A DNA stretch of 41,966 bases, from IMG/VR virus record IMGVR_UViG_3300037461_000435, positions 1-41,966 of that record; one strand, written 5' to 3'. This document shows, one piece after another, positions 11,202 to 33,190 of this stretch (the stretch's first letter is position 1; every line of letters begins with the position of its first letter). The position numbers were made by a program, and so were the translations under genes. The notes beneath the pieces were generated by a model. That model worked only from the letters and a program-made list of their open reading frames with translations, was not told the DNA's origin and made no database searches. Source of the DNA: a virus. Taxonomy: Duplodnaviria > Caudoviricetes.

Positions 11202-12578
11202 ATGTATTACTGGCGCTATGGGTTCACCTCCACCTATCTCGAGACCCTGCTCACCATCATCGGGTCAACCCAGGATATTGACACATCCTACCTGGAAACA
11301 AATGACGACACCAACTGTATTTATGTCGCCTGGACAGGCGATGATGGGGACGCCGGTACGCAGGCGGAACCGGTGCGCACCATCGAGCAGGCGCTGACAC
11401 TGGCGGCCGGGGACACTGATATATCCGTCATCACCATCCTGGACAGCAATACCTATGACACCAACATCACCGGCGATAATTATATCAATCTGGTGGGCAT
11501 TACGCTCCAGGGGGCGGCAGGTCAAAGCCCGGTACTGGTGGTGGACACATCGGCCCAGAATTACATGGTGAAGATATCGGGCGCCGGTAAGCTGATCAAT
11601 GTGCAACTATCGATCGAGGACAGCGGGAACCAGATCACGGGGATCGAGATCGAAAGCGGTACAGTTAAAAATGTAACCATATTTGGCGCCACCAGGGAAG
11701 GAATCAGCGTGCCGGCCGGATCCACAACGGTCGCCATTGACAATACATATATTTATTCCAGCCTGAACCGCGGCACCACCGACGGCAACGCGGTCAAGAT
11801 CGCCGAGGGAACCGTGACCTTGACTCGATGCCTGCTGGTTGATAACCATCGGGCGGGGATCTATTGCACCGGCGCCGATGTAAAAACCGTGACCATTGAT
11901 TATTGCACCATCGCCGGCAATCAATACGGGGTGCATGCCTACAGTTCAACCAATGCCGCGATCGAGGTGGACAACTCCATCCTGTTTGAAAACGATATCG
12001 CCGATTATTACCACGATTCGATCACCGTGGACGATTCCTGCATTGGATCGATATCCGGACTGGCGGAGTTCGAGCGGATCCTCTTCAATCCACTATTTAT
12101 TGGCGGTGGCGATTACAGGATCCGCACGCTCCAGAATGGATATACCGACGGCAGCTATATCAGCCCGGTGATCAGCCAATCGGATACCGGGAAAGATCTG
12201 GGGTGCTATGATTACGAGCGCACCACGGAAAGCACCATCTATACTGAGTTTATCACCGAGCGGCCGATCACCTTCCGCAAAACTGATGTTGCCCTCGATG
12301 CGACGTTGAAATACACCAATACCCTGGTGGCGCGGCAAACGGACAAGGGCATTATCAGCAAATTATATCTTGGCTGGGATCAGATTGTTGACGAACAGTT
12401 CGAGAACCTGCAAGACATGTATGCCGCGGGCGGAACCATCTATCTATCCATTGACAATGGGCTCAATTTTACGGCGTATAAAATCGACAAAACCCAGCCG
12501 CTGGAATATTCCAGAACCACCAATATCGATGATATGGATTACCAGGCTGGGGTTGGCCTGGGGTTGATCGTGGCATGA
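11202..12578 (+). CDS. Tail-tip protein: right-handed beta-helix plus C-terminal Dit-like region
   Basis: GTQAEPVRTIEQAL cap, parallel beta-helix repeats, NPLF...DYRI...DLGCY closure; occupies the Dit position after TMP. Confidence 0.65.
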   Translation: MYYWRYGFTSTYLETLLTIIGSTQDIDTSYLETNDDTNCIYVAWTGDDGDAGTQAEPVRTIEQALTLAAGDTDISVITILDSNTYDTNITGDNYINLVGITLQGAAGQSPVLVVDTSAQNYMVKISGAGKLINVQLSIEDSGNQITGIEIESGTVKNVTIFGATREGISVPAGSTTVAIDNTYIYSSLNRGTTDGNAVKIAEGTVTLTRCLLVDNHRAGIYCTGADVKTVTIDYCTIAGNQYGVHAYSSTNAAIEVDNSILFENDIADYYHDSITVDDSCIGSISGLAEFERILFNPLFIGGGDYRIRTLQNGYTDGSYISPVISQSDTGKDLGCYDYERTTESTIYTEFITERPITFRKTDVALDATLKYTNTLVARQTDKGIISKLYLGWDQIVDEQFENLQDMYAAGGTIYLSIDNGLNFTAYKIDKTQPLEYSRTTNIDDMDYQAGVGLGLIVA

Positions 12579-15500
12579 AGTACACGCTCAACAATATTGA
12601 CATATCGCCCCATGTGATCGGTTTTACCAACGTCAGATATCGCGTGGGAAAGACCCGGAACCTTTCACCCAACTCGGCCACTATAACGCTGGCCAATACC
12701 GACAATCTCTTTTCGCCCGAAAATGTCAATTCTTACCTATACGCATATCGTCGACGCTATGACCAGGTGACCGTCAAGATTGAGACCGATGACGGTGTGC
12801 TGGTATGGCATGGGGTGCTGGATAACGTGGTGCGGGATATCGACGGCGCCACGGTCACCCTGGAAACCACCGAAACCATCAGCAAGATCACCGAGCAGAT
12901 CAATATCGACTATCAGGCGGGCGATGGCTTTGCCGGGACCATGGCCCACCAGGGAGAAACCGAGCCAGCCACCCACCAGCTGGCAATCGCCCGGCGGTAT
13001 TTTGACGACTCCTATCTTGACGTTGGGGCCTTCCTGGCGGCAATCGAGGAGCAGAGCGCCGATGGGATCACCTGCGAAGTAACGGTCACCTCGGATGATA
13101 CCATCAAGCCGCTGGATCTCATCAAGGCATTATGCTTTGATTGCTATCGACTGACGATTTATAATAACCGGTTATCGATTCTGAAAGAGCGGGTATTTGA
13201 CGGCAACTATGGCTTTTATTTGCCCGATGAATTGATCATTGATTCCGGCATCATACAAAAACAGAAGTATGAATCCTATACCAGGTATGCCATCACCTGC
13301 ATGAATGGCACGGACATTGAAACATATGAGGGCACCATTGGCGATTCGGGGAACGGGACCGCCGACGCCACCACGCTGACGGACGCGGGCGCCTCCTGGG
13401 ATGAGAACGAGCTGGCGGGGCAGTTTGTTGAAATCAATGACGCATTGATCCTTGAAATCACCGAAAACACACCCACAATTATCAGGTTTGCAGGCAATAC
13501 CGAGATCGGAGCGGTCACCTACAAGGTGCTTGAAAATAACAATTTGTATTCCGCGGATTATTCCACCGGGAAATTGGTGCTCACCGACGGCGCCGACGAA
13601 ATAGGGGTGGCGATCCTGAGCACCCAGAAAGCCCAGCGGCTCATCATCAGGAATATCATGGTGGCCGATAGCCTTCCCTTGCTCCCCGGCGATACCATTA
13701 CCATCCGCTATGAGGATGAGGGATTGATCTATAAGCCGTTTGAAATCGTGGAGCTCGAGCACCGGCCCGAGGAGCGCGTGTATATTCTGGACATCGAGGA
13801 CTTGACCATCTTCGATGATACCGACACCATCGAGCCACCCGAGTCAGTGCTTGACCTCGAGGGCATCCGCCAGGAAAACACCGCGAAACTCTGGTGGACC
13901 GCGATCACTAACGCCACGCATTATCGGATTTATCAATCCACCAACGGCCAGGATTACCATCTGGTGTCCACCACCACCACGGCATCGGATACCATCGAGG
14001 ACCTGTTCAGGTGGATCGGATATTATTTTTATGTGACCGCGGTGAATGCGTATGGCATGGAATCCGGAAGATCAAACATCCTGATTCTCGCCAAGCAGGA
14101 AGATGAGGCCGGATATATTGACGGATCCGATGGGCCCAACATGGAGCAATACGAGAAATGGGGGATCCTCGAAGCCTATCATTTTTTAATCTGCTATAAA
14201 AACCTGATCGGCAATGACATCGGCTACCTGGTGAAAAGCGAGGTGGCCGTGCTGGACAAATCGCAAAAGCAGGGCGCCAGCGATATCAGCCAGACGTGGG
14301 CGGAGGATGCCCTGTCCTCGACCGCGCGGACATTCGGGTATATCGACACCGCGGGCATTTCGACATATAGCCCCTATTACAAAAACACCGCCGGCGTGAT
14401 ATCGGTCATCAACTCGCTGGATATTCCCCTCACGCTCGATGGCACCACCTATGCCGCCGGCGCGGATCTCACCGATTCCGATGATTGGTTCATCGTGGAC
14501 GGCCTCGGTGATTATATGACCTATTGGTTTGGCACGGGTTACATGGCCGACATCATGCAAACCGGGTGGCGGGATTGGTTCAAGGTATTCCATATCGATC
14601 GGACCATGGGGATATTTGATTCCGGCACCTGTTCGGGAACGGGGACGCTGACCGATGCGACCAAGACCTGGAACAATGACCAATGGATCGGATATTATAT
14701 CAAGCTGGGCGCGGAATGGTATAAGATCACCGACAATACCGCCAACACCATCACCATTGACGATGCAACTGTTTTCACGGATGCGGCGTATATCATCAAC
14801 TCGGAACCATATTCGGGATTCAAGGGTGTGTTCCTGGATGACGTGTGGGACCATATCATCATCAATTATACCGATATCAAGGACGCGACCGACAGCAATG
14901 TCACCAGCGATTGGGCCGGCGCCACCTGGGTCACCGACACATCCAAATCCTGGACGGTGAACGAATGGGCCGGCTACCAGGTCCAGATCGCCGGCGCGGG
15001 CCCATGGTTTAACATTACCGACAATACCGCCGACACCATCAATTTTGACGGGCCCAATGGGAACGTGGGCGCCGGCAAGGCCTATGCGATCAAGTGCAAA
15101 TTCGAGGTTGATAATGGCGTGACCTATGCCGAGGCAATGACCGATTTCCTCGCCGAGATCAGGGCCCATGTCGAAACCAGGTCGATTGAATACGAGGGGA
15201 GCACCGCCAGGCTGGCCCAGGGTGTGATCATGTTGAATACCTGGCCGATCGACTTTGCCAACTACCAGGATTTTGTCGATGCCATCAACCTGAATTATCA
15301 CCATTATGTGATGTTTGAGGCCTTGCAATGCACCTGGATCATGGCCAACGAGGTCACCAAGCAGTTCAAGATAAACGACTGGCACCAGGCGCTTGATCGA
15401 TACGACCAGATGAAGCTCACCAATGTGCGCCTGGCCACGCTGGGATATCCTCCCCACCAGCAGATGTATCTGGCGCACCTGGCCGCGGGGATGCTGCTCT

Positions 15501-18500
15501 CAAAATATAGCGACAAGATCGAGGACATTATCAGCGGCAGCAACATCGTCCTTGACCAGATATTTTATGACATGCTCATGGCCCGCGGACTGGAAACAAA
15601 ATTCACCGTGGGGATCCCCGATTCAGGTTACGAGGACAGCTACAACGCGGCCAATTATGATCATTATGCGGTCCATTGGAGGAAGTTTACCGGGGCATAT
15701 GTATATTTCAACCCCGCCCGCAAGGTGCGCAAACTCGAGGTAATCCCAACCGAGGAACTCATTTCCTACCATACCGGCGACGCCCGGGAGAACGGGACCG
15801 CATATGATCTGTATCTTCCGCCATGGTCCATGGAGGCCCTATTCAGGCCAACCATGGCCGGCAGGATTGCCGCCCTGTTTCTCTCCGAATATCATCCCTA
15901 TACCTATATCGACTGCAACGCGGCCTGGGTAATCTTTACCGCAGCCGGCGCCGCGGCTATCGGGACCAGCTCTGTTTGGATCAACAACGGTCATGGGCAT
16001 CACAAAAAGTTCATTATTGACGGCACGGCCACCATACCCGAGGGCGAGCCCTCACAATTATTCCATGCCGGGGATGGCGCGGCCACATCGGTCACCGGAT
16101 ATGACGCCGACACGGAAGCCATCGTGGGTACCGGCATCAACAGCGCGGTGACCCTGACATCGAAAACCATCTACGCGGTGCCGTTTGTCGAGATCACCGG
16201 CGGGGCCGCACTGGTGCCGGGGACTGATTATCTGGTTGAATACAAGGAAAGTGAAAACAATGCGATCGATAAAGGCATCTGGGAAACCGATATATATTTC
16301 CTGACCGACCAGACAGGAGTAAACCTGACGGTATATTTTTACGAGCAGGGCCTGGGCGGGGATGGATATCCAGATCCGGATTATGAGCGCGTTGAGCATG
16401 GAATCCTATACCGCGAGGCAACCGGCTTTGAGCTGATCACCGGCGATATCGATTACGCGGATTGCGGCACCACCCTGGAGGAGGGGACTGATTATTTTCT
16501 TATCCCTGAAATCATCCGCTGGAAATGGGAATATCGTATAAAGAACCCATTCTCAATCGTGGGCGCCATGACCGGCGATCCGCCGGCAATCAACACCAGG
16601 AATATTATCAGCAGCGACACCCCGGGGGTGCGAAAAATCCAATGGGGCGATGTGGACGCCGACAACGTGATCCTGGTAGATGCGGCCCATACCTCGGCTA
16701 CCAGTTATAACGGAAAAAAGCTCTCCTATGGGTCCAAGACCGTCACCAAGCCCAAGGTGCTGATCTACGGGTTCACCAAGGACCCGCGGGATGCCAGCTA
16801 CGCCACCAAGGCGGTGGCCGATAGGACATTCAACAAGTGGCGCACCGAGAACCTGATCGACCGCGAGGATGGCGTACTCTATGACGATGTGGTGATCACC
16901 GGGTATTATGACGGCATCGAGGATCCGGTGGATACCGGCGCATGGGGATCCATCCAGGGTTGGATGGACGCTGAAAGCAAGACCTATGCCGAGGCCCAGG
17001 CATATTTCGACGTGGTCATCATCCTGGATAATTTCCTCGAGGCCAGCGCGGGATCGGCCTCAACACGGGAGCAATGGTCAAGCTGGCTGGATGAGGTGGA
17101 TTATAATTTTCTGAGCGGATTCAAATCGACCGAATCCCAAAACAAGCTGATCATCGATGTCAGGTTCGGCGGTACGGGGTTTGTGTATTATGGCGGCGTG
17201 CAGGCGATAGGGACCAGCCTGCGGAATTGGTCAACCGGCGCCGATCTCACCGATTTATACGGGGTATTATATTTTGCCTCGGCGGCGTTTTCAGACCTCA
17301 CCGATACGGATGCCGATATTTACGCGGATGAGGATGGCACCAAGTTATCTACCACGCTCCTCACCGATTACCGCATATTCAATTCCATAAAAAACATCAC
17401 TGACCACTATGCAGTACCCGTGCCGACCGACCCCGAAGAAGAAACAAGCTGGCCCTATTATAATACTTATGAAAATGGCGGCGACTCATTCAGTTATATA
17501 CCGCGATCCGCGCTGATCCGATCCGGCTATGCACAGGCCACCATATTTGAGCATAGCAAATTATACCGTCGATTATATGACATCACCGATTCGAGCGAAG
17601 AATGGATCAGCTATGAGCCTATCGAGCTGGACACCCTATATTTGCGCCATATGCCGGTATGGATCCTGCATCGCGACCTGAATTTTGGGGCGCCGTTATC
17701 GGTGTTCCAGGACGATACTGGAAACCGTGAAACCATAGAGGCTATCTATGGCTGGAGCTATACCGGCCAGATGGTGGCGGTGCCGCTGATCAAGCGCGAT
17801 CAGGACCTTGGCGCTGCCTTCATCGAGGGCAAATATTTTACCTATCCCGAGGCGATAGATGAAGACAGCGACCGGAAACTGACCGATGATTTCCAGACCT
17901 ATACGGAATGGTCTGGATATTTCGGGCATTACATTTCGAATTTTGGATCCTATGCGGGATATATCGGGGTATGGTTGCGGCCACAAAAGGATTATCATTT
18001 TTATCCATTAGGTGGTCCCAATCTCTATCCGTATTACCGGGCCACTGATGTCAACGCCTTGCTGGACTTGGGCAATGTAATAGAGTTTGATCACTGGTCG
18101 GGTGAAATATCACCGGGCTACGGCAAGGTATATGATGGATCATATATGGACCATGGACCCATACCGTTCAAACGCACTAAATCTGTATACGAGGGAAACG
18201 TCCTGAGTATACAGAAATCCACCGATGTGATCACCATCGCGACCAATATTGAAAGCGCGGATTTGCAAAATGTTAATCCCGCAACAGCATTGGCCCAGGG
18301 CATCATCACCGATGTGGATGAGGAACCGTTTGCATTCGGCATTTATATTTATAAAGTATATATCGATCTTGGGTTCGGGTATGTCGCGGACAAGAATGAA
18401 TTCAAGGGTAAATATTTATTTGTTTTTAACCGGCCCTATAAGATCGACGGCAATACCGCGGGAATCAGCATTAAATTGGAGTTATGGGAAGACGGTGACA

Positions 18501-19261
18501 TCAGTGATTATGATACATGGGTCACCACGGTTGGCTATATCCGGTCAAATGGTTCGATCCATATGTGCATGCTGTTCAACGCCACCGAGGATGAAAACAC
18601 CATATTCAACGCCCCGGTGGTCCAGGTAAATCCATCCAGTGGAACGGTTATCATTTATTCCGCGCGGATGGTGGCGGCGGCCGCCGGCCCCACGCCCGTG
18701 GGGTATATCATATTATATCCCAATGATGAAAACGAGGAAAACAATAAGACCAACTTGGGCGGCCTGGTTACGACCCTTGATATTGCGCAAACAATATATG
18801 TCGCCGGAAACGATACCGACAGGTGGGAAACATCCCTGATTGACCGGGGGCTCTCAATATTTGACCGCCATTATCAGGAGCGCATCAAGGAGTTTGCGTG
18901 TGAATATAATACCGGTCTTATTACCGGGTATGCATTCACGCGGATCGCTGAAAAGGCCCCGCTGGTGGTATGGGCCGGCGTGTCCGTGGATGATATCAAG
19001 CGCTTGATATTCAATTTCATCGGCACCACGATCCAATATACCGGGGTCACCATCACCGAGGGCGACAAGCTCTATTTGTATTATAACGCGATGACCGACA
19101 TGCTGCAGATCCTCGAGCAGGATGTGGATGATCCGATCGACTGTCCATATAAATATGGATCGTATGAGGGCATGTATTTATTGGCATTATTGGCAACACA
19201 ATCATTGAACCAATTCACCTGGGGCGTCAGCTCCTGGGGCGATGGAGGACGGTGGGCATGA
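12575..19261 (+). CDS. Giant tail-tip/central fibre protein (hub, FN3, glycoside-hydrolase-like barrel, repeated modules)
   Basis: 2228 aa; FN3 (LWWTAITNATHYRIYQS...YYFYVTAVNAYGMESGRS); FKGVFLDD, VMFE and WRKFTGAYVYFNP motifs. Confidence 0.8.
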   Translation: MKYTLNNIDISPHVIGFTNVRYRVGKTRNLSPNSATITLANTDNLFSPENVNSYLYAYRRRYDQVTVKIETDDGVLVWHGVLDNVVRDIDGATVTLETTETISKITEQINIDYQAGDGFAGTMAHQGETEPATHQLAIARRYFDDSYLDVGAFLAAIEEQSADGITCEVTVTSDDTIKPLDLIKALCFDCYRLTIYNNRLSILKERVFDGNYGFYLPDELIIDSGIIQKQKYESYTRYAITCMNGTDIETYEGTIGDSGNGTADATTLTDAGASWDENELAGQFVEINDALILEITENTPTIIRFAGNTEIGAVTYKVLENNNLYSADYSTGKLVLTDGADEIGVAILSTQKAQRLIIRNIMVADSLPLLPGDTITIRYEDEGLIYKPFEIVELEHRPEERVYILDIEDLTIFDDTDTIEPPESVLDLEGIRQENTAKLWWTAITNATHYRIYQSTNGQDYHLVSTTTTASDTIEDLFRWIGYYFYVTAVNAYGMESGRSNILILAKQEDEAGYIDGSDGPNMEQYEKWGILEAYHFLICYKNLIGNDIGYLVKSEVAVLDKSQKQGASDISQTWAEDALSSTARTFGYIDTAGISTYSPYYKNTAGVISVINSLDIPLTLDGTTYAAGADLTDSDDWFIVDGLGDYMTYWFGTGYMADIMQTGWRDWFKVFHIDRTMGIFDSGTCSGTGTLTDATKTWNNDQWIGYYIKLGAEWYKITDNTANTITIDDATVFTDAAYIINSEPYSGFKGVFLDDVWDHIIINYTDIKDATDSNVTSDWAGATWVTDTSKSWTVNEWAGYQVQIAGAGPWFNITDNTADTINFDGPNGNVGAGKAYAIKCKFEVDNGVTYAEAMTDFLAEIRAHVETRSIEYEGSTARLAQGVIMLNTWPIDFANYQDFVDAINLNYHHYVMFEALQCTWIMANEVTKQFKINDWHQALDRYDQMKLTNVRLATLGYPPHQQMYLAHLAAGMLLSKYSDKIEDIISGSNIVLDQIFYDMLMARGLETKFTVGIPDSGYEDSYNAANYDHYAVHWRKFTGAYVYFNPARKVRKLEVIPTEELISYHTGDARENGTAYDLYLPPWSMEALFRPTMAGRIAALFLSEYHPYTYIDCNAAWVIFTAAGAAAIGTSSVWINNGHGHHKKFIIDGTATIPEGEPSQLFHAGDGAATSVTGYDADTEAIVGTGINSAVTLTSKTIYAVPFVEITGGAALVPGTDYLVEYKESENNAIDKGIWETDIYFLTDQTGVNLTVYFYEQGLGGDGYPDPDYERVEHGILYREATGFELITGDIDYADCGTTLEEGTDYFLIPEIIRWKWEYRIKNPFSIVGAMTGDPPAINTRNIISSDTPGVRKIQWGDVDADNVILVDAAHTSATSYNGKKLSYGSKTVTKPKVLIYGFTKDPRDASYATKAVADRTFNKWRTENLIDREDGVLYDDVVITGYYDGIEDPVDTGAWGSIQGWMDAESKTYAEAQAYFDVVIILDNFLEASAGSASTREQWSSWLDEVDYNFLSGFKSTESQNKLIIDVRFGGTGFVYYGGVQAIGTSLRNWSTGADLTDLYGVLYFASAAFSDLTDTDADIYADEDGTKLSTTLLTDYRIFNSIKNITDHYAVPVPTDPEEETSWPYYNTYENGGDSFSYIPRSALIRSGYAQATIFEHSKLYRRLYDITDSSEEWISYEPIELDTLYLRHMPVWILHRDLNFGAPLSVFQDDTGNRETIEAIYGWSYTGQMVAVPLIKRDQDLGAAFIEGKYFTYPEAIDEDSDRKLTDDFQTYTEWSGYFGHYISNFGSYAGYIGVWLRPQKDYHFYPLGGPNLYPYYRATDVNALLDLGNVIEFDHWSGEISPGYGKVYDGSYMDHGPIPFKRTKSVYEGNVLSIQKSTDVITIATNIESADLQNVNPATALAQGIITDVDEEPFAFGIYIYKVYIDLGFGYVADKNEFKGKYLFVFNRPYKIDGNTAGISIKLELWEDGDISDYDTWVTTVGYIRSNGSIHMCMLFNATEDENTIFNAPVVQVNPSSGTVIIYSARMVAAAAGPTPVGYIILYPNDENEENNKTNLGGLVTTLDIAQTIYVAGNDTDRWETSLIDRGLSIFDRHYQERIKEFACEYNTGLITGYAFTRIAEKAPLVVWAGVSVDDIKRLIFNFIGTTIQYTGVTITEGDKLYLYYNAMTDMLQILEQDVDDPIDCPYKYGSYEGMYLLALLATQSLNQFTWGVSSWGDGGRWA

Positions 19262-28335: not shown

Positions 28336-28531
28336 CCTGGAGCAGATCCGCGCGGCCGCCGAGGAGGTGTTTGACCGGCGGCACCGGGGCAGCATGTCCC
28401 TGGCGCAGTTCAGGCTGGGGTTTTACGAGGGCGCGGATTTCATGCGCCGGTCACAGCGGATAACGGAACTGGAGGCGCGGCATGGCAAAGCCGGTCAAGA
28501 TACGGACGGCCTGTGTCAAATGCGGGATTGA
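28322..28531 (+). CDS. Hypothetical protein
   Basis: MLTFDLEQIRAAAEE...FRLGFYEGADF; tiles with neighbours. Confidence 0.5.
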   Translation: MLTFDLEQIRAAAEEVFDRRHRGSMSLAQFRLGFYEGADFMRRSQRITELEARHGKAGQDTDGLCQMRD

Positions 28532-28601
28532 GCTGGTCATCGAGGCCGACGACAAGAGCCCAGCGGCCAAGGTGGTCAAGTGTTCACGGTGCGGAAAATG
28601 A
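28482..28601 (+). CDS. Tiny zinc-ribbon protein (39 aa, not in ORF track)
   Basis: GGAGG RBS; CVKC...CSRC. Confidence 0.5.
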   Translation: MAKPVKIRTACVKCGIELVIEADDKSPAAKVVKCSRCGK

Positions 28602-28701
28602 CCCGGCACGATCTCGATGAACTGGAGCTGGTGTTCAAGGAGATCGAGGCGGTATTCGACAAGATCAAGCTGTTCGACGCGGCATATCATCTGGAGGAAC
28701 G

Positions 28702-29163
28702 ATGGCAAACGACATCAACAGGATCATCCTCATCGGGCGACTCGTTAAAGCGCCCGAGTTGAGATACACCCAGGCGGGGACGCCGGTGGCCAACTTTTCC
28801 CTGGCGAACAACCGGGAGTATACCGCCAACGGCGAGAAGAAGAAATACTCATCATTCATCAACTGCATCGCCTGGAACAAATTGGGCGAGATCATGGTCC
28901 AGTACTGCAAGAAGGGCCAGCGGGTGGCCATCGAGGGCCGGCTCCAGCAGCGGCAGTGGGAGGACAACACCGGGGCCCATCGGCAATCCGTGGAGGTGAT
29001 CGTGGACAATTTCCAGTTCCTCACGGACAAGAAAGCCGAGGGCGACCAACCGACAGAGGACCGGCCCGCGGAACCGCGGCCGCCGATCCTGGAGGGCGAG
29101 GACGTAAGCGGCCAGGCGCCGGACTTCGACGGCGCACTGCCGGTTGATGATATACCGTTTTAA
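28702..29163 (+). CDS. ssb: Single-stranded DNA-binding protein
   Basis: INRIILIGRL, PELRYT, KGQRVAIEGRLQ, acidic DDIPF tail. Confidence 0.96.
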   Translation: MANDINRIILIGRLVKAPELRYTQAGTPVANFSLANNREYTANGEKKKYSSFINCIAWNKLGEIMVQYCKKGQRVAIEGRLQQRQWEDNTGAHRQSVEVIVDNFQFLTDKKAEGDQPTEDRPAEPRPPILEGEDVSGQAPDFDGALPVDDIPF

Positions 29164-29351
29164 GGAAGCCAGACCTCCTGAGGCAACCATCACATGCGAG
29201 CGAGCCAGTAACAAAGAGAAAACCACTGTAACAGAGCGAGCCAGGGACGGGAAGGAAACCACGAAAGGAGAGCGGGCCATGGGAAGAAAGGAACCCACGA
29301 AGGACAAGCGGGCCAGAAGCGGGGAGAAAACCATGTCGGAAGAGCGAGCAC
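29163..29351 (+). ncRNA. TIGR-type dual-repeat guide RNA array 1 (5 x 36 nt)
   Basis: CCA every 18 nt (29169, 29187 ... 29331); alternating AGCG(A/G)GCCA and AG(G/A)AAACCA repeats separated by variable ~9-nt spacers. Confidence 0.88.
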
Positions 29352-29390
29352 TTAAAAACCCCGATGGGGTATAACAATAGGAGGTTACCG

Positions 29391-30068
29391 ATGGTAACAA
29401 AACAAGTCAAGGCGATTGAGTTGGTGTTTGATTGGAACCTGTGGCCGCGGCATGAGGTTGGCCAGTTGGATTCCACAAATCTGGCGCGCATGCGGCAGGC
29501 GATATTGGCGGGAATAAAACTGCCCCCGGTGATCGTCAACCAGCATGACAACCGTATTATCGATGGCATGCACCGCACGAAGGTCATGCTAAGTTTGTAC
29601 GGCGACGATGCCATGATCGAGGTGCTGTATAAGCAGTATGAGAGCGAGGCCGAGATGTTTATCGACGCGGCCAGGATAAATAATCAGCACGGTCTGCCCT
29701 TGTCGCCCAAGGATCGGGTGCACGTATTTTTAAAGGCCCGAAAGATGAGGATTCCCATCCCGGCCATTGCCGAGGCCCTGGGCATGGAGGTAGAGGCAAC
29801 CAAAAAGTTCATTGAGGACAGGATCGCGACAAGCAAGTCCGGCGAGAAAATTCCACTGCCGGGCGGGGCGCACAATCTGAAGGGGAAGGTGCTCACCAAG
29901 AAACAGGAGGAGTACGTCAAATCATGCCCCGGCACAAGCGCCCAGCTGTATGCCCGGCTCCTGCTGAATGCGCTGAACGCCGACGCGGTGATTTTCAATG
30001 ACAAGGTAGTGGCGGCATTAAAGGACCTCAAGATCAAGATTGAGATCATTCTTGCGGAGGTGGCGTGA
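29391..30068 (+). CDS. ParB/Srx-like N-terminal domain protein with HTH, coupled to tasA
   Basis: LPPVIV...IIDGMHR, NNQHGLPLS, IAEALGM; AGGAGG RBS; stop overlaps the next start. Confidence 0.82.
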   Translation: MVTKQVKAIELVFDWNLWPRHEVGQLDSTNLARMRQAILAGIKLPPVIVNQHDNRIIDGMHRTKVMLSLYGDDAMIEVLYKQYESEAEMFIDAARINNQHGLPLSPKDRVHVFLKARKMRIPIPAIAEALGMEVEATKKFIEDRIATSKSGEKIPLPGGAHNLKGKVLTKKQEEYVKSCPGTSAQLYARLLLNALNADAVIFNDKVVAALKDLKIKIEIILAEVA

Positions 30069-30775
30069 TGGAAGAACGGAAAAAGCAATCACTGCACATT
30101 CTTACGCGCGCCTACTATGACTATCAGCGCGAGCGGATGTCACTGGACGGACAGATCGGCCGCAAGAAGAACGGCGAATTAAAGAAAGGTGTACCGGAAC
30201 GCGAGGAGGAGCTGTTACTGTTGTTGATGGAGCGCCGCGAGGCCGTGGCGGAAATGGAAAACCAGCTCCTGAAAGAGATCGCCAAGGAGGTGCATCTGTA
30301 TCCGCTCTGGAAGGAATTTCTGGAGCACGTGCTGGGCTGCGGGGAGGGCATGGCCGCGGTGATCATGACCCAGTTTGACATCACCAAGGCGCCGACCGTC
30401 TCCAATCTGTGGAGCTTTGCCGGACTCGCCCCCGGCAAGGACCGCAAGGTCAAGGGCCAGAGATGCCCATTCAATCAGTTCTTGCGGGCCAAACTGTGCG
30501 GGGTGCTTGGTTCCGGGTTCCTGAAGGCCAACAGCCCGTATCGTGAATATTACGACAACATGAAAAACCGGCTGGAATCCGAGGACTGGGGAACGGCAAG
30601 CAAGAACCCGACGGACAAGAAACGCCCGAAGGCGGGGCACCAGCACAAGGCGGCGACGCGGTACATGGTCAAGATGTTTCTGAAAGACCTCTATGTCGCC
30701 TGGCGCACGCTGGAGGGATTGCCCGTGCGCCCTCCCTACCATGAGGAATATCTGGGTAAACGCCATTCGGCATAA
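30065..30775 (+). CDS. tasA: TasA-like Nop-domain RNA-binding protein (IS110-related, no nuclease domain)
   Basis: Coiled coil plus VLGCGEGMAAVIM, SNLWSFAGL, YREYYD and HKAATRYMVKMFLKDL; no DEDD/RuvC or HNH domain; flanked by two 36-nt arrays. Confidence 0.85.
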   Translation: MMEERKKQSLHILTRAYYDYQRERMSLDGQIGRKKNGELKKGVPEREEELLLLLMERREAVAEMENQLLKEIAKEVHLYPLWKEFLEHVLGCGEGMAAVIMTQFDITKAPTVSNLWSFAGLAPGKDRKVKGQRCPFNQFLRAKLCGVLGSGFLKANSPYREYYDNMKNRLESEDWGTASKNPTDKKRPKAGHQHKAATRYMVKMFLKDLYVAWRTLEGLPVRPPYHEEYLGKRHSA

Positions 30776-30779
30776 GGAG

Positions 30780-30968
30780 AGCGAGCCATTAGTGGTAAGG
30801 AAACCATTAAGGATGAGCGAGCCATTTACGGTGAGGAAACCATGTATCATGAGCGGGCCAGAATACTGGAGGAAACCATTGACCGTGAGCGAGCCGATCG
30901 CCGTGAGGAAACCACAATCTTCGAGCGGGCCATTGCGACGGAGAAATCCAACTACCAGGAGCGCATCA
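30780..30968 (+). ncRNA. TIGR-type dual-repeat guide RNA array 2 (5 x 36 nt)
   Basis: CC(A/G) every 18 nt (30786 ... 30948); same two alternating repeats as array 1 with different spacers; starts 5 nt after the tasA stop. Confidence 0.9.
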
Positions 30969-31129
30969 GAACGCTGGACAAAATGAGCCAGCGGGCGGCC
31001 GGCAGAGAATGAAGGTGGTTCATTGCCACCCCGGCCACATCGCCGCGGCAGACCTTTGGCTCACGCGGCGAAAGTAGAAGTAGTGTATTTTTCCACCCTC
31101 GGATGCGGGGAAACATCCGGGGGCCCTTT

Positions 31130-31209
31130 GCCGGTTCAGGCGAGCTGATCGTCAATAACCTTTCCCGGGTGTTGATGGTAAGGCGGGGGTTCGATTCCCC
31201 TGGCCGGCA
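31130..31209 (+). ncRNA. tRNA-like element (acceptor stem and T arm, non-canonical middle)
   Basis: GCCGGTT/GGCCGGC acceptor stem; GGGGG-TTCGATT-CCCCT T arm; discriminator A; the anticodon stem does not pair canonically. Confidence 0.5.
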
Positions 31210-31234
31210 CAGAATACATACAGGAGGAGGCGGC

Positions 31235-31411
31235 ATGAAAAACGTAAGTTTAGCGGTTGACGGGGATCTGCTCACCATCACCTGCGACCTTTCAAAGCGG
31301 TATGGTAAAAGCTCATCGGGGAAGACCATTATCATCGCCAGCACCGAGGGCAATGTGTCGGTCCCTGAATCGGACGCGAAAATCGGGCTGAATATCTATG
31401 TGAAGGAGTAA
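31235..31411 (+). CDS. Small hypothetical protein
   Basis: AGGAGGAGG RBS; LTITCDLSKRYGKSSSGKTIIIASTEGN. Confidence 0.75.
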   Translation: MKNVSLAVDGDLLTITCDLSKRYGKSSSGKTIIIASTEGNVSVPESDAKIGLNIYVKE

Positions 31412-31425
31412 ACCGGGAGGAGCGT

Positions 31426-31635
31426 ATGGCAACGATAGATCCATCAATCGAAGTATACACATTCAACGTAAACCTCAGGGATTACCTGGCGGCCCAGGCG
31501 ATGATGGGCATGTTGGCAAGCGGCTATTTTCCCCGCGGCGGGTATAAGGACGGCTATGCGGAAGGCGCGGCTGAATCCTACAAGATAGCCGACGCGATGC
31601 TGGCGGCAAGAGGAGACAACAATGAAGCTGAGTAA
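31426..31635 (+). CDS. Small phage protein
   Basis: LRDYLAAQAM...SYKIADAMLAAR, a motif common in phage early genes. Confidence 0.75.
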   Translation: MATIDPSIEVYTFNVNLRDYLAAQAMMGMLASGYFPRGGYKDGYAEGAAESYKIADAMLAARGDNNEAE

Positions 31636-32305
31636 CATCCAGCAGGTGGCCGTGGGGCGCCTGAAATTCAACACCATCAACCAGAAGTATTTCAAGGAGG
31701 AGGGCGGCCGCGAGCTCACGGCGCTGGAGAAGGACATCAAGGCCCGCGGGATCCAGGTGCCGCTTATCGCCAAGAAGGACGGCACGCTCCTGGCCGGCCA
31801 TCGCCGGCTCCTCATTGCCAGAAAGCTGCGCTTGAAAAAGGTCCCGGTCCAGTTTGTGGCCGGCAAGATGAGTAAGTCCGAGGAAAAGAAGTACATCATC
31901 AAGGACAACCTCCTGCGCCGCCATCTGTCATTCGAGCAGCGCCAGGCATTGTATAAGACGGCGATCCGCGATCTACCCCATCGGATCCTCATCAAGAATA
32001 GCTCCATGGGCATCACCGAGGAGGACCTCATGGAGGAGACCGGGCTGGACAGGTCCACGGTCAAGCGCGACCTGAACCGCATGCGGCGGGCCCGCGAGCG
32101 CGAGGTATTGCCCCAACTGGATATCAAGGTGGTCAACACCAAGGAGGTGCTGAAACTCAAAAAGGCCCTGGCGGCCATGATGAACGTCGCCCGCTGGGAC
32201 AACGAGCTCACCATCGCGGCATTCATGGAGCTCCTGCGGTCGGCCATGAGCGACCTGGAAGTAAAGACCAGACTGCAACAGGGAGCGGCAAAGCGGCTGA
32301 CGTAA
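31622..32305 (+). CDS. Second ParB/Srx-like domain protein with HTH
   Basis: DIKARGIQVPLI, LLAGHRRL, DNLLRRHLS, ETGLDRSTVKRDL. Confidence 0.85.
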   Translation: MKLSNIQQVAVGRLKFNTINQKYFKEEGGRELTALEKDIKARGIQVPLIAKKDGTLLAGHRRLLIARKLRLKKVPVQFVAGKMSKSEEKKYIIKDNLLRRHLSFEQRQALYKTAIRDLPHRILIKNSSMGITEEDLMEETGLDRSTVKRDLNRMRRAREREVLPQLDIKVVNTKEVLKLKKALAAMMNVARWDNELTIAAFMELLRSAMSDLEVKTRLQQGAAKRLT

Positions 32306-32327
32306 ACACGTAAACACGTAAACACGT
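32300..32327. repeat. Tandem 8-mer ACGTAAAC x3 (+ACGT) upstream of the replication gene
   Basis: Directly visible perfect repeats at 32300-32323. Confidence 0.85.
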
Positions 32328-32356
32328 GAAAAACAACCTGGCAGAGGGTGTGGTGC

Positions 32357-33190
32357 ATGTCAGATATTAAATGGATCAAAATATCAACCAACATTTTCGA
32401 TGATGAAAAAATCAAGCTCATCGAAAACCTGCCGGAGGGGGACACCATCCTGATTATATGGATTAAGCTCCTGGTGTTAGCCGGGCGATGCAACCAGTGC
32501 GGGCTTATCTATATCGCCCGAGATATACCCTATGATGAAATGACGCTGACTACGATTTTAAACAGGCCATCGGCAACCGTAAAATTGGCCATTGAGACGT
32601 TTATTAGATTCGGAATGATCGAGATAATGAATGAGAAGCTGGCAATCATCAACTGGGAGAAACATCAGAACCTTGATGGATTGGAACTCATGCGGGAACA
32701 AAGCAAAATGAGGATGAGAAAGTACCGCGAGAAACGAAAATTGCTATGTGACGCAACCGTTACGCAACCGTTACCCAAGGTTACGCAGGAGAATAAGAGT
32801 AATAATAAGAATAAGAATAAGAATAAGAAAGAAAATAGCGCGTCGCGCTTTACCCATGAATCTGTTCGTGCTTGGTTCACGGACAATAATACAAATTATT
32901 ACCATGATGCAAAACAAGCCGCATGCATCAACAAGCTGATTAGCAAGGCCGCCGGCTTGGGACATGATCCTCTTGATATTGCTGTTAGGTTTAAGCATAT
33001 CATAGAAAGCGGTGATAAATTTTGGTGTCAACAACCGCTTACACCGGCGCGAACGCTCGCCAATTATGACGCCATCGTATCTCATAAAGACATAAAAAGT
33101 ACCAACTATAGAACCAAAAATGCTTTTTTGGAAAGTCTTACACCAGAGGAACAGGAGGCAATGGTCGGCGATAGGAGGTTCATAGAATGA
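32357..33190 (+). CDS. Replisome organizer / replication initiator
   Basis: WIKISTNIFDDEKIKLIE...IWIKLLVLAG...INWEKHQN N-terminal domain. Confidence 0.9.
   Translation: MSDIKWIKISTNIFDDEKIKLIENLPEGDTILIIWIKLLVLAGRCNQCGLIYIARDIPYDEMTLTTILNRPSATVKLAIETFIRFGMIEIMNEKLAIINWEKHQNLDGLELMREQSKMRMRKYREKRKLLCDATVTQPLPKVTQENKSNNKNKNKNKKENSASRFTHESVRAWFTDNNTNYYHDAKQAACINKLISKAAGLGHDPLDIAVRFKHIIESGDKFWCQQPLTPARTLANYDAIVSHKDIKSTNYRTKNAFLESLTPEEQEAMVGDRRFIE
32748..32837. other. Probable replication origin inside the initiator gene
   Basis: Four iteron-like GTTACGCAACC variants (32748-32789) followed by AT-rich AAGAAT repeats, as in lambda O. Confidence 0.7.

What the first reader, a model, noticed from the sequence alone, without database searches (positions are those of the whole stretch)
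29391..30775. ParB-like protein coupled to TasA inside the arrays: a candidate non-nuclease effector for RNA-guided DNA binding
Seen: the ParB/Srx-like gene (IIDGMHR, HTH-like IAEALGM) lies between array 1 and tasA, and its TGA overlaps the tasA start (GTGATG), giving an array-parB-tasA-array unit. Established: ParB-family CTPases load at a site, clamp and spread along DNA, and can silence nearby promoters. Inference: TasA-tigRNA could act as a programmable parS that loads this clamp for long-range silencing or for interfering with segregation of a target replicon. This two-component role is the part most likely to be uncharacterised.
Basis: inference. Interest (0 to 1): 0.85.

Follow-up and report, generated by a model that had tools for sequence, protein, structure and literature searches.

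The report
Shared ParB helper of RNA-guided silencers
This phage carries a published but untested gene pair, a ParB-like gene coupled to the non-cutting RNA-guided DNA binder TasA between two guide arrays, and the same ParB-like family also sits beside two unrelated RNA-guided systems, so it is likely a general helper that would strengthen guide-directed gene silencing.

Summary
Observation confirmed: array 1 (5 units), parB-like gene (225 aa), tasA (235 aa, TGATG overlap) and array 2 (5 units) lie in a temperate phage's early region. This is the tasParB-tasA operon described by Faure et al. 2025; its function is untested. The model has a ParB N-domain plus HTH, and the GxxR arginine is invariant. 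The catalytic Gln and Glu of ParB CTPases are replaced, and no ParA or self-target was found, so CTP use and partitioning are unsupported. The family is not TIGR-specific. Of 166 evaluable distinct homologues, 91 adjoin TasA, 66 VIPR, 3 a nuclease-dead Cas12f-like CRISPR and 1 both TasA and VIPR; 5 have no recognised partner. The sampling is biased. I found this sharing in no paper text searched (VIPR figures unseen), but this scan noted it before on other DNA. Best reading (0.45): a nucleotide-gated DNA clamp or co-repressor acting at targets held by non-cutting RNA-guided binders of different folds. A covarying palindrome over the parB start codon supports an autoregulation rival. New member of a known kind.

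The parts
29163..29350 (+). TIGR dual-repeat array 1: 5 units, truncated first and last edge repeat; begins right after the ssb stop
29358..29370 (.). palindrome or hairpin 1 (5-bp arms around GAT) between array 1 and the parB ribosome-binding site
29384..29398 (.). palindrome or hairpin 2 (6-bp arms) with the parB start codon at its centre; arms covary in related loci
29391..30068 (+). tasParB: ParB/Srx-fold N-domain (about 1-105), HTH (106-143), beta hairpin and linker, two C-terminal helices (184-224); 225 aa
   Evidence: 20 of 21 listed differences in close relatives fall at third codon positions
30068..30775 (+). tasA: Nop-domain-only Tas protein, 235 aa, no nuclease domain; invariant Y224 and H233 are the likely tigRNA-processing dyad
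   Evidence: dyad described in bioRxiv 2026.09.09.750476
30780..30965 (+). TIGR dual-repeat array 2: 5 units; same length but diverged in a close relative

Best explanation
The locus is a phage TIGR-TasA cassette whose ParB-like protein likely acts as a nucleotide-gated DNA clamp or co-repressor that would gather at the site held by TasA and its guide and so likely strengthen or widen silencing of rival mobile elements. Shown by sequence and calls: the cassette, the fold, the invariant phosphate-binding motif, and the family's place beside three unrelated RNA-guided binders. Known from papers on other orthologues: TasA binds 36-nt dual-spacer guides, and a different TasA represses transcription by binding DNA. 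Inferred: the ParB-like dimer binds an NTP (identity open; CTP not supported), closes on DNA, and is loaded or trapped at the unwound, bent target. Because Nop, RAMP and Cas12f partners share no fold, it likely reads the distorted DNA or the roadblock rather than one conserved protein surface. The missing catalytic Gln and Glu would predict slow release.
For: (1) Of 178 distinct family members, 12 are cut by a contig end. Of the other 166, 91 lie within 1.5 kb of tasA, 66 of vipr, 3 of a Cas12f-like gene, 1 of both tasA and vipr, and 5 of none. (2) Partner identity: the Vipr profile hits SUSP1 Vipr (PDB 36PP) at E 2.3e-24, and 35 of 48 such loci have GGY/NN tracts (counted). The Cas12f-like protein hits PADLOC Cas12f at 6e-15 and has a 7-copy CRISPR array. 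Asp is not among the six commonest residues at RuvC-I, and 0 of 82 homologues have the C-terminal zinc finger, so it is inferred dead. (3) Partner-first scans recover the gene: Vipr 23 of 23, of which 16 are new contigs; Cas12f-like 3 of 13, including L244, found from the Cas query alone. (4) None of 95 adjacent Tas frames matched an HNH pattern, and those not cut by a contig end are mostly 225-350 aa. (5) D14, P19, R20, R55, D58, G59, H61, R62 and D108 are invariant or nearly so across the TIGR and VIPR groups. R62 aligns with M. xanthus ParB R95, which is needed for CTP binding. (6) Precedents: TasA and VIPR silence without cutting; VIPR vap1, a different protein, boosts or is required for activity; KorB clamps are locked by KorA or TrbA (abstract); ParB Q52A and E93A spread further.
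Against: The gene is optional: 51 of 79 Tas-first loci and 10 of 13 Cas12f-first loci lack it, a TasA represses alone in E. coli, and three cultured-phage VIPR loci lack it. Five full-flank members have no recognised effector (L013, L017/L018, L035, L235, L239). No natural target was found: none in the window, and 3 of 422 units had exact hits in the loci against 1.4 +/- 1.1 for re-paired controls. Predicted targets are not enriched for promoter or ribosome-binding motifs. The clamp is inferred from fold alone: 17 of 28 purified ParB-fold proteins bound no NTP, and specificity is not predictable. A covarying palindrome at the start codon fits autoregulation. The counts come from seeded searches and are not natural frequencies. 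No TasH or TasR control group was retrieved, so exclusion from nuclease systems was not tested.
Confidence: 0.45

Rival explanations
1. Autoregulator or cis-acting factor: the HTH dimer binds a palindrome at its own start (or a hairpin there controls translation) and tunes expression of whichever guide cassette it rides in, without going to the guide target.
For: Two palindromes with the same CC-GAT-GG core lie at 29358-29370 and 29384-29398. Arms of >=4 bp surround the start codon in 14 of 55 distinct TIGR-type contexts. Among the 16 with the core, 13 pair, against 4.2 +/- 1.5 when arms are re-paired (0 of 1000), with compensatory changes. A regulator needs no partner-specific surface.
Against: 0 of 57 VIPR-type and 0 of 3 Cas-type contexts have it, and 41 of 55 TIGR-type contexts lack it. 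No shared palindrome precedes array 1 in 20 leaders. Covariation with a changing sequence fits an RNA hairpin better than an operator, and related loci inflate the count. It does not explain the invariant NTP pocket.
Confidence: 0.17
2. One reading: a CTP-dependent ParB clamp loaded through direct contact with TasA (programmable parS) that spreads for kilobases or blocks partition of a target replicon.
For: ParB N-domain, HTH and C-terminal helices are present; GxxR is kept; ParB and TasA co-diverge; Faure et al. report an AF3 2:2 model and HHpred matches to ParB CTPases. TasA in this clade is well conserved, which could allow a fixed interface.
Against: The Q52 and E93 equivalents are replaced. 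The DGxHR motif and an LPP loop resemble the divergent, often ATP-binding branch, though that is a weak trend only. There is no ParA-binding motif in 178 sequences and no ParA-type Walker A in the window or loci. The same family serves Vipr and Cas12f.
Confidence: 0.15
3. Enzymatic effector: the ParB/Srx pocket uses ATP for chemistry (kinase-, Srx- or DndB-like, or nuclease activity) on the displaced DNA strand or on a protein at the target.
For: The DGxHR histidine is invariant in both groups; Srx, SerK and SbnI are among the fold matches (Z 6.0-8.6); ParB/Srx members have varied activities.
Against: The best and longest matches are HTH-bearing ParB, Noc and KorB, and no substrate-binding domain is attached.
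Confidence: 0.13
4. Guide acquisition or array-maintenance factor for systems that lack Cas1-Cas2.
For: No cas1 or cas2 was noticed beside the ParB gene in the loci read, and TIGR has no known adaptation module. Spacers turn over between close relatives. L013 keeps parB and an array without a nearby tasA.
Against: The three guide architectures (36-nt dual spacer, 5-nt period, CRISPR) share no DNA logic; most arrays persist without the gene; no integrase or nuclease fold is present.
Confidence: 0.06

Closest known systems
tasParB-tasA operons of dual-repeat TIGR systems (Faure et al., Science 2025, PMC12045711; passages read, fig. S14 not seen)
   Same: parB-like gene in an operon with nuclease-free tasA, with dual-repeat arrays upstream and downstream; 10-nt repeats (the ninth 'spacer' base is G in 395-400 of 422 units).
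   Different: Nothing in kind. The paper gives no function and, in the text seen, no link to VIPR or Cas12f.
VIPR systems and vap genes (bioRxiv 10.64898/2026.04.26.720920 = PMC13142463, .720927, 2026.10.15.759431; passages, one section and the supplement PDF text; figures not seen)
   Same: Phage-borne, non-cutting RNA-guided silencer with one accessory gene; the ParB family here is the accessory at many vipr loci.
   Different: This window has no Vipr. The vap1-position genes of a SUSP1-like phage and of phage Trine do not match this family. The word ParB is absent from the text, but a figure label could name it.
RNA-guided repression by TasA (bioRxiv 10.64898/2026.09.09.750476; parts 1-4 of 7 read)
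   Same: Nuclease-free Tas represses by guide-directed DNA binding.
   Different: Shown for stem-loop systems without ParB; 'ParB' occurs 0 times.
Canonical ParB/Noc/KorB CTPase clamps; KorB-KorA/TrbA silencing (PMC13768133 abstract; bioRxiv 2021.05.05.442810 and PMC12704722 passages)
   Same: N-domain fold, PR and GxxR motifs, Asn of box III, HTH, C-terminal helices.
   Different: Catalytic Gln and Glu replaced; shorter central domain; no ParA or ParA-binding motif; no known parS.

Membership tests
TIGR-TasA (dual repeat) | Nop-domain Tas protein | tested here: met
   NF052498 146 bits; TasH and TasR structure hits
TIGR-TasA (dual repeat) | No HNH or RuvC domain | tested here: met
   235 aa, starting at the parB stop; no nuclease family hit
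TIGR-TasA (dual repeat) | 36-nt units with alternating edge and loop repeats ending in box C (CCA) | tested here: met
   box D reads AG rather than UG, in both repeats
TIGR-TasA (dual repeat) | Processing into 36-nt tigRNAs and guide-directed DNA binding | not testable with these tools
   only assembled contigs were available
tasParB (Faure 2025) | ParB-like gene in an operon with tasA, flanked by arrays | tested here: met
   sequence identity to the paper's own examples not checked (fig. S14 not readable)
Canonical ParB CTPase | ParB/Srx N-terminal fold plus HTH | tested here: met
Canonical ParB CTPase | GxxR phosphate-binding motif | tested here: met
   G59-M-H-R62 aligns with GERR; invariant
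Canonical ParB CTPase | Catalytic Gln (Mx Q52) and Glu (Mx E93) | tested here: not met
   W18 (Y in VIPR type) and M60 (F in most)
Canonical ParB CTPase | CTP binding, clamp closure and sliding | not testable with these tools
   specificity is not predictable from sequence or AF3
ParABS partition system | Adjacent parA and a ParA-binding motif | tested here: not met
   no KGGxGK[TS] in the window or in long frames of the loci (motif recalled); motif in 0 of 178; the phage has an integrase
ParABS partition system | parS-like palindromic site | tested here: inconclusive
   palindromes at 29358-29370 and 29384-29398; binding unknown
VIPR vap1 | Homology to the gene after vipr in SUSP1-like phages | tested here: not met
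   hhalign probability 0.6%; taking that gene as vap1 is my inference from its position

The most novel reading that the evidence does not exclude
One phage ParB-fold family (1,079 clusters at 50% identity with E<=1e-30) is a plug-in, nucleotide-gated clamp shared by three unrelated non-cutting RNA-guided systems (TIGR-TasA, VIPR, dead Cas12f). It would be loaded at any guide-opened DNA site and spread, turning a point roadblock into long-range, programmable silencing.
Probability: 0.25. Interest if true: 0.85.

Novelty: new member of a known kind. Interest (0 to 1): 0.5.

Why it matters
The function of tasParB is an open question stated in the TIGR discovery paper, and the roles of VIPR accessory genes are also open. 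One family beside three unrelated guide systems constrains the answer: the job is likely common to non-cutting guided DNA binding. It also gives a direct test, swapping the helper between systems. If it is a guide-loaded clamp, it would be a compact way to extend CRISPRi-type repression. The locus itself is ordinary for its kind.

Tried and rejected
Co-fold of TasA with the ParB-like protein: no verdict (score 0.16, mark 0.32); not used either way. Pfam on the ParB-like protein: nothing. tblastn in cultured phages: no match. Rfam over 28500-32500: nothing. Promoter and terminator scan: about chance level. Self-targets: none within 3 mismatches in the 18-bp reading (two 4-mismatch hits), and none within 2 mismatches in the 16-bp reading with 0-2 bp gaps. 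Targets in the fetched loci: not above controls (4 vs 5; 3 vs 1.4). My impression that targets carry ribosome-binding or promoter motifs failed on 422 units; only ATG was above shuffles, 170 vs 136. Repeated independent recruitment by TIGR: the free quick tree suggested 5 changes, but the tree holding all TIGR-linked rows together was 81 log-likelihood units better (p-AU 0.978). A single origin therefore stands, the quick tree's deep branching is not trusted, and no direction of transfer is claimed. The window's second ParB-HTH gene (31622-32305) is not of this family. L069 was dropped as a generic ParB beside other genes. The L235 neighbour did not match Vipr. Expression: only contigs, one short piece in an RNA run; no evidence of transcription. 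Literature: searches and term look-ups found ParB linked to these systems only in PMC12045711. Subscription papers, figures, the Faure supplementary PDF, VIPR data S4 and bioRxiv supplements were not seen and may bear on the novelty of the sharing.

Full report
Setting. The window is a whole 41,966-base contig of a temperate tailed phage: terminase, portal and head genes, a serine integrase, a CI-like repressor, an antirepressor, ssb and a replisome organiser. The cassette sits directly after the ssb stop in the early region. In one coded run, a relative's contig joins the ssb end (29143) to 31033, skipping the cassette (one contig, 41 letters on the short side, so a weak hint). In another run of the same study, a contig keeps parB-tasA at about 94% identity while array 2 has the same length but is diverged. 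The cassette therefore looks like an optional module with fast-changing guides.

Observation. There are ten guide units, five per array. Nine match a strict pattern that none of 200 shuffles reached. The ninth spacer base is nearly always G (395 and 400 of 422 units from 69 loci), matching the 10-nt repeats described for these loci. TasA is identified by NCBIfam and by profile hits to solved TasH and TasR. The upstream gene is real: 180 homologues, and 20 of the 21 differences listed within it for close relatives fall at third codon positions (the listing was cut).

Already described. Faure et al. 2025 (PMC12045711, passages) report that tasA loci are occasionally in operons with a parB-like gene, name it tasParB, describe arrays upstream, downstream and between, give an AF3 model, and test nothing. 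A 2026 preprint shows that a TasA represses transcription without a partner and does not mention ParB.

The protein. AF2 gives a confident model with a ParB/Srx N-domain, an HTH and two C-terminal helices; the best fold matches are Noc, ParB, pNOB8 ParB and KorB. A VIPR-linked member folds the same way. Alignment to M. xanthus ParB shows PR and GxxR kept, with R62 equal to the CTP-binding R95. [quoted passage not shown] DGFHR is the form in 141 of 178 sequences; 11 were not matched by the simple pattern. ParB-fold proteins bind CTP, ATP, GTP or nothing, and this cannot be predicted. The likely recognition helix is the least conserved part (0.50 against 0.70 for the N-domain). No ParA signal was found.

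Neighbourhoods. ParB-first scans of three collections gave 160 loci plus the window, with 142 distinct proteins: 78 beside tasA, 44 beside a RAMP gene, 1 beside both and 19 beside neither, mostly at contig ends (the metagenome scan kept only the best 80 of 292). The RAMP gene is Vipr, usually with GGY/NN tracts. Two of the unassigned loci carry a Cas12f-like gene and a CRISPR array, with RuvC-I altered and the C-terminal part missing. Partner-first scans: Vipr 23 of 23 with ParB (query built from ParB-linked Viprs, so biased); Cas12f-like 3 of 13, with 11 of 13 having arrays; Tas 28 of 79, and 16 of 17 among close TasA. Pooled: 161 of 166 evaluable distinct members have a partner within 1.5 kb; 12 edge-cut members were set aside. 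The window's protein lies in a well-supported group of 14 representatives, 12 beside tasA (SH-aLRT 99). Whether all TIGR-linked members share one origin is open, and the AU test did not reject it. Earlier scan notes on other genomes reached the same VIPR and Cas12f links; I read them after finding these links, and they are not independent evidence.

Mechanism. All three partners bind DNA by RNA guidance and are known or inferred not to cut it, yet they share no fold. A helper common to them most simply reads what they have in common: a stalled complex on unwound, bent DNA. With a clamp-like architecture, an invariant phosphate pocket and no canonical catalytic pair, I favour a long-lived clamp or co-repressor loaded or trapped at the target, in the manner of KorB locked by KorA (abstract); confidence 0.45. 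Against it: the gene is optional, five members lack a recognised partner, no natural target was found, and nothing biochemical is shown. The strongest rival is autoregulation: a palindrome with covarying arms surrounds the start codon in 14 of 55 TIGR-type contexts, and occurs twice in this window, but in none of 57 VIPR-type contexts. Partition of the phage's own DNA is unlikely, because the phage integrates and there is no ParA or self-target.

Verdict. The locus is a new member of a published, functionally untested kind. The sharing of one ParB-like family across TIGR, VIPR and dead Cas12f was not found in the paper texts searched, with figures and several supplements unseen. It makes the open question testable by cross-complementation. 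Interest 0.5.

Noticed in passing
window 31622-32305: A second, unrelated ParB-N plus HTH gene 850 bases downstream, just before the replisome organiser; no match to the tasParB family.
   Followed up: partly
L022:2829-5290, L023, L244; L324-L336: Phage family of about 400-aa Cas12f-like proteins with an N-terminal zinc-finger-like motif, altered RuvC-I and no C-terminal zinc finger; a conserved scaffold-like stretch and CRISPR mini-arrays in 11 of 13 loci; 87 homologues.
   Followed up: partly
L038:3860-8064: One phage carries vipr, the ParB gene and GGY/NN tracts, flanked by two divergent tas genes with no array detected.
   Followed up: partly
L235:3500-5418 (also L236, L237): ParB-family gene after a CC-rich, roughly 5-nt-periodic tract and before an unnamed 243-aa viral protein; no Vipr or PADLOC match, and the Atlas gives only unnamed viral clusters, with a weak RAMP lead at 0.76. 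Possibly another guide system.
   Followed up: partly
L013:1602-2600: parB followed by a TIGR array, with no tasA within 6 kb on either side (L014).
   Followed up: partly
L018:5600-7000: The parB homologue appears inserted into a short gene between two related repeats that resemble a diversity-generating retroelement cassette (resemblance recalled, not tested).
   Followed up: no
L035, L239: Solo members with no guide system nearby, in similar small-phage contexts.
   Followed up: partly
window 32300-32330 and 32790-32837: Short tandem repeats (8-nt x3 before the replisome organiser; 6-nt repeats inside it, a possible origin).
   Followed up: no
window 12575-19261: A 2,228-aa ORF in the tail region, not scanned; several neighbouring structural genes have no PHROG match.
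   Followed up: no
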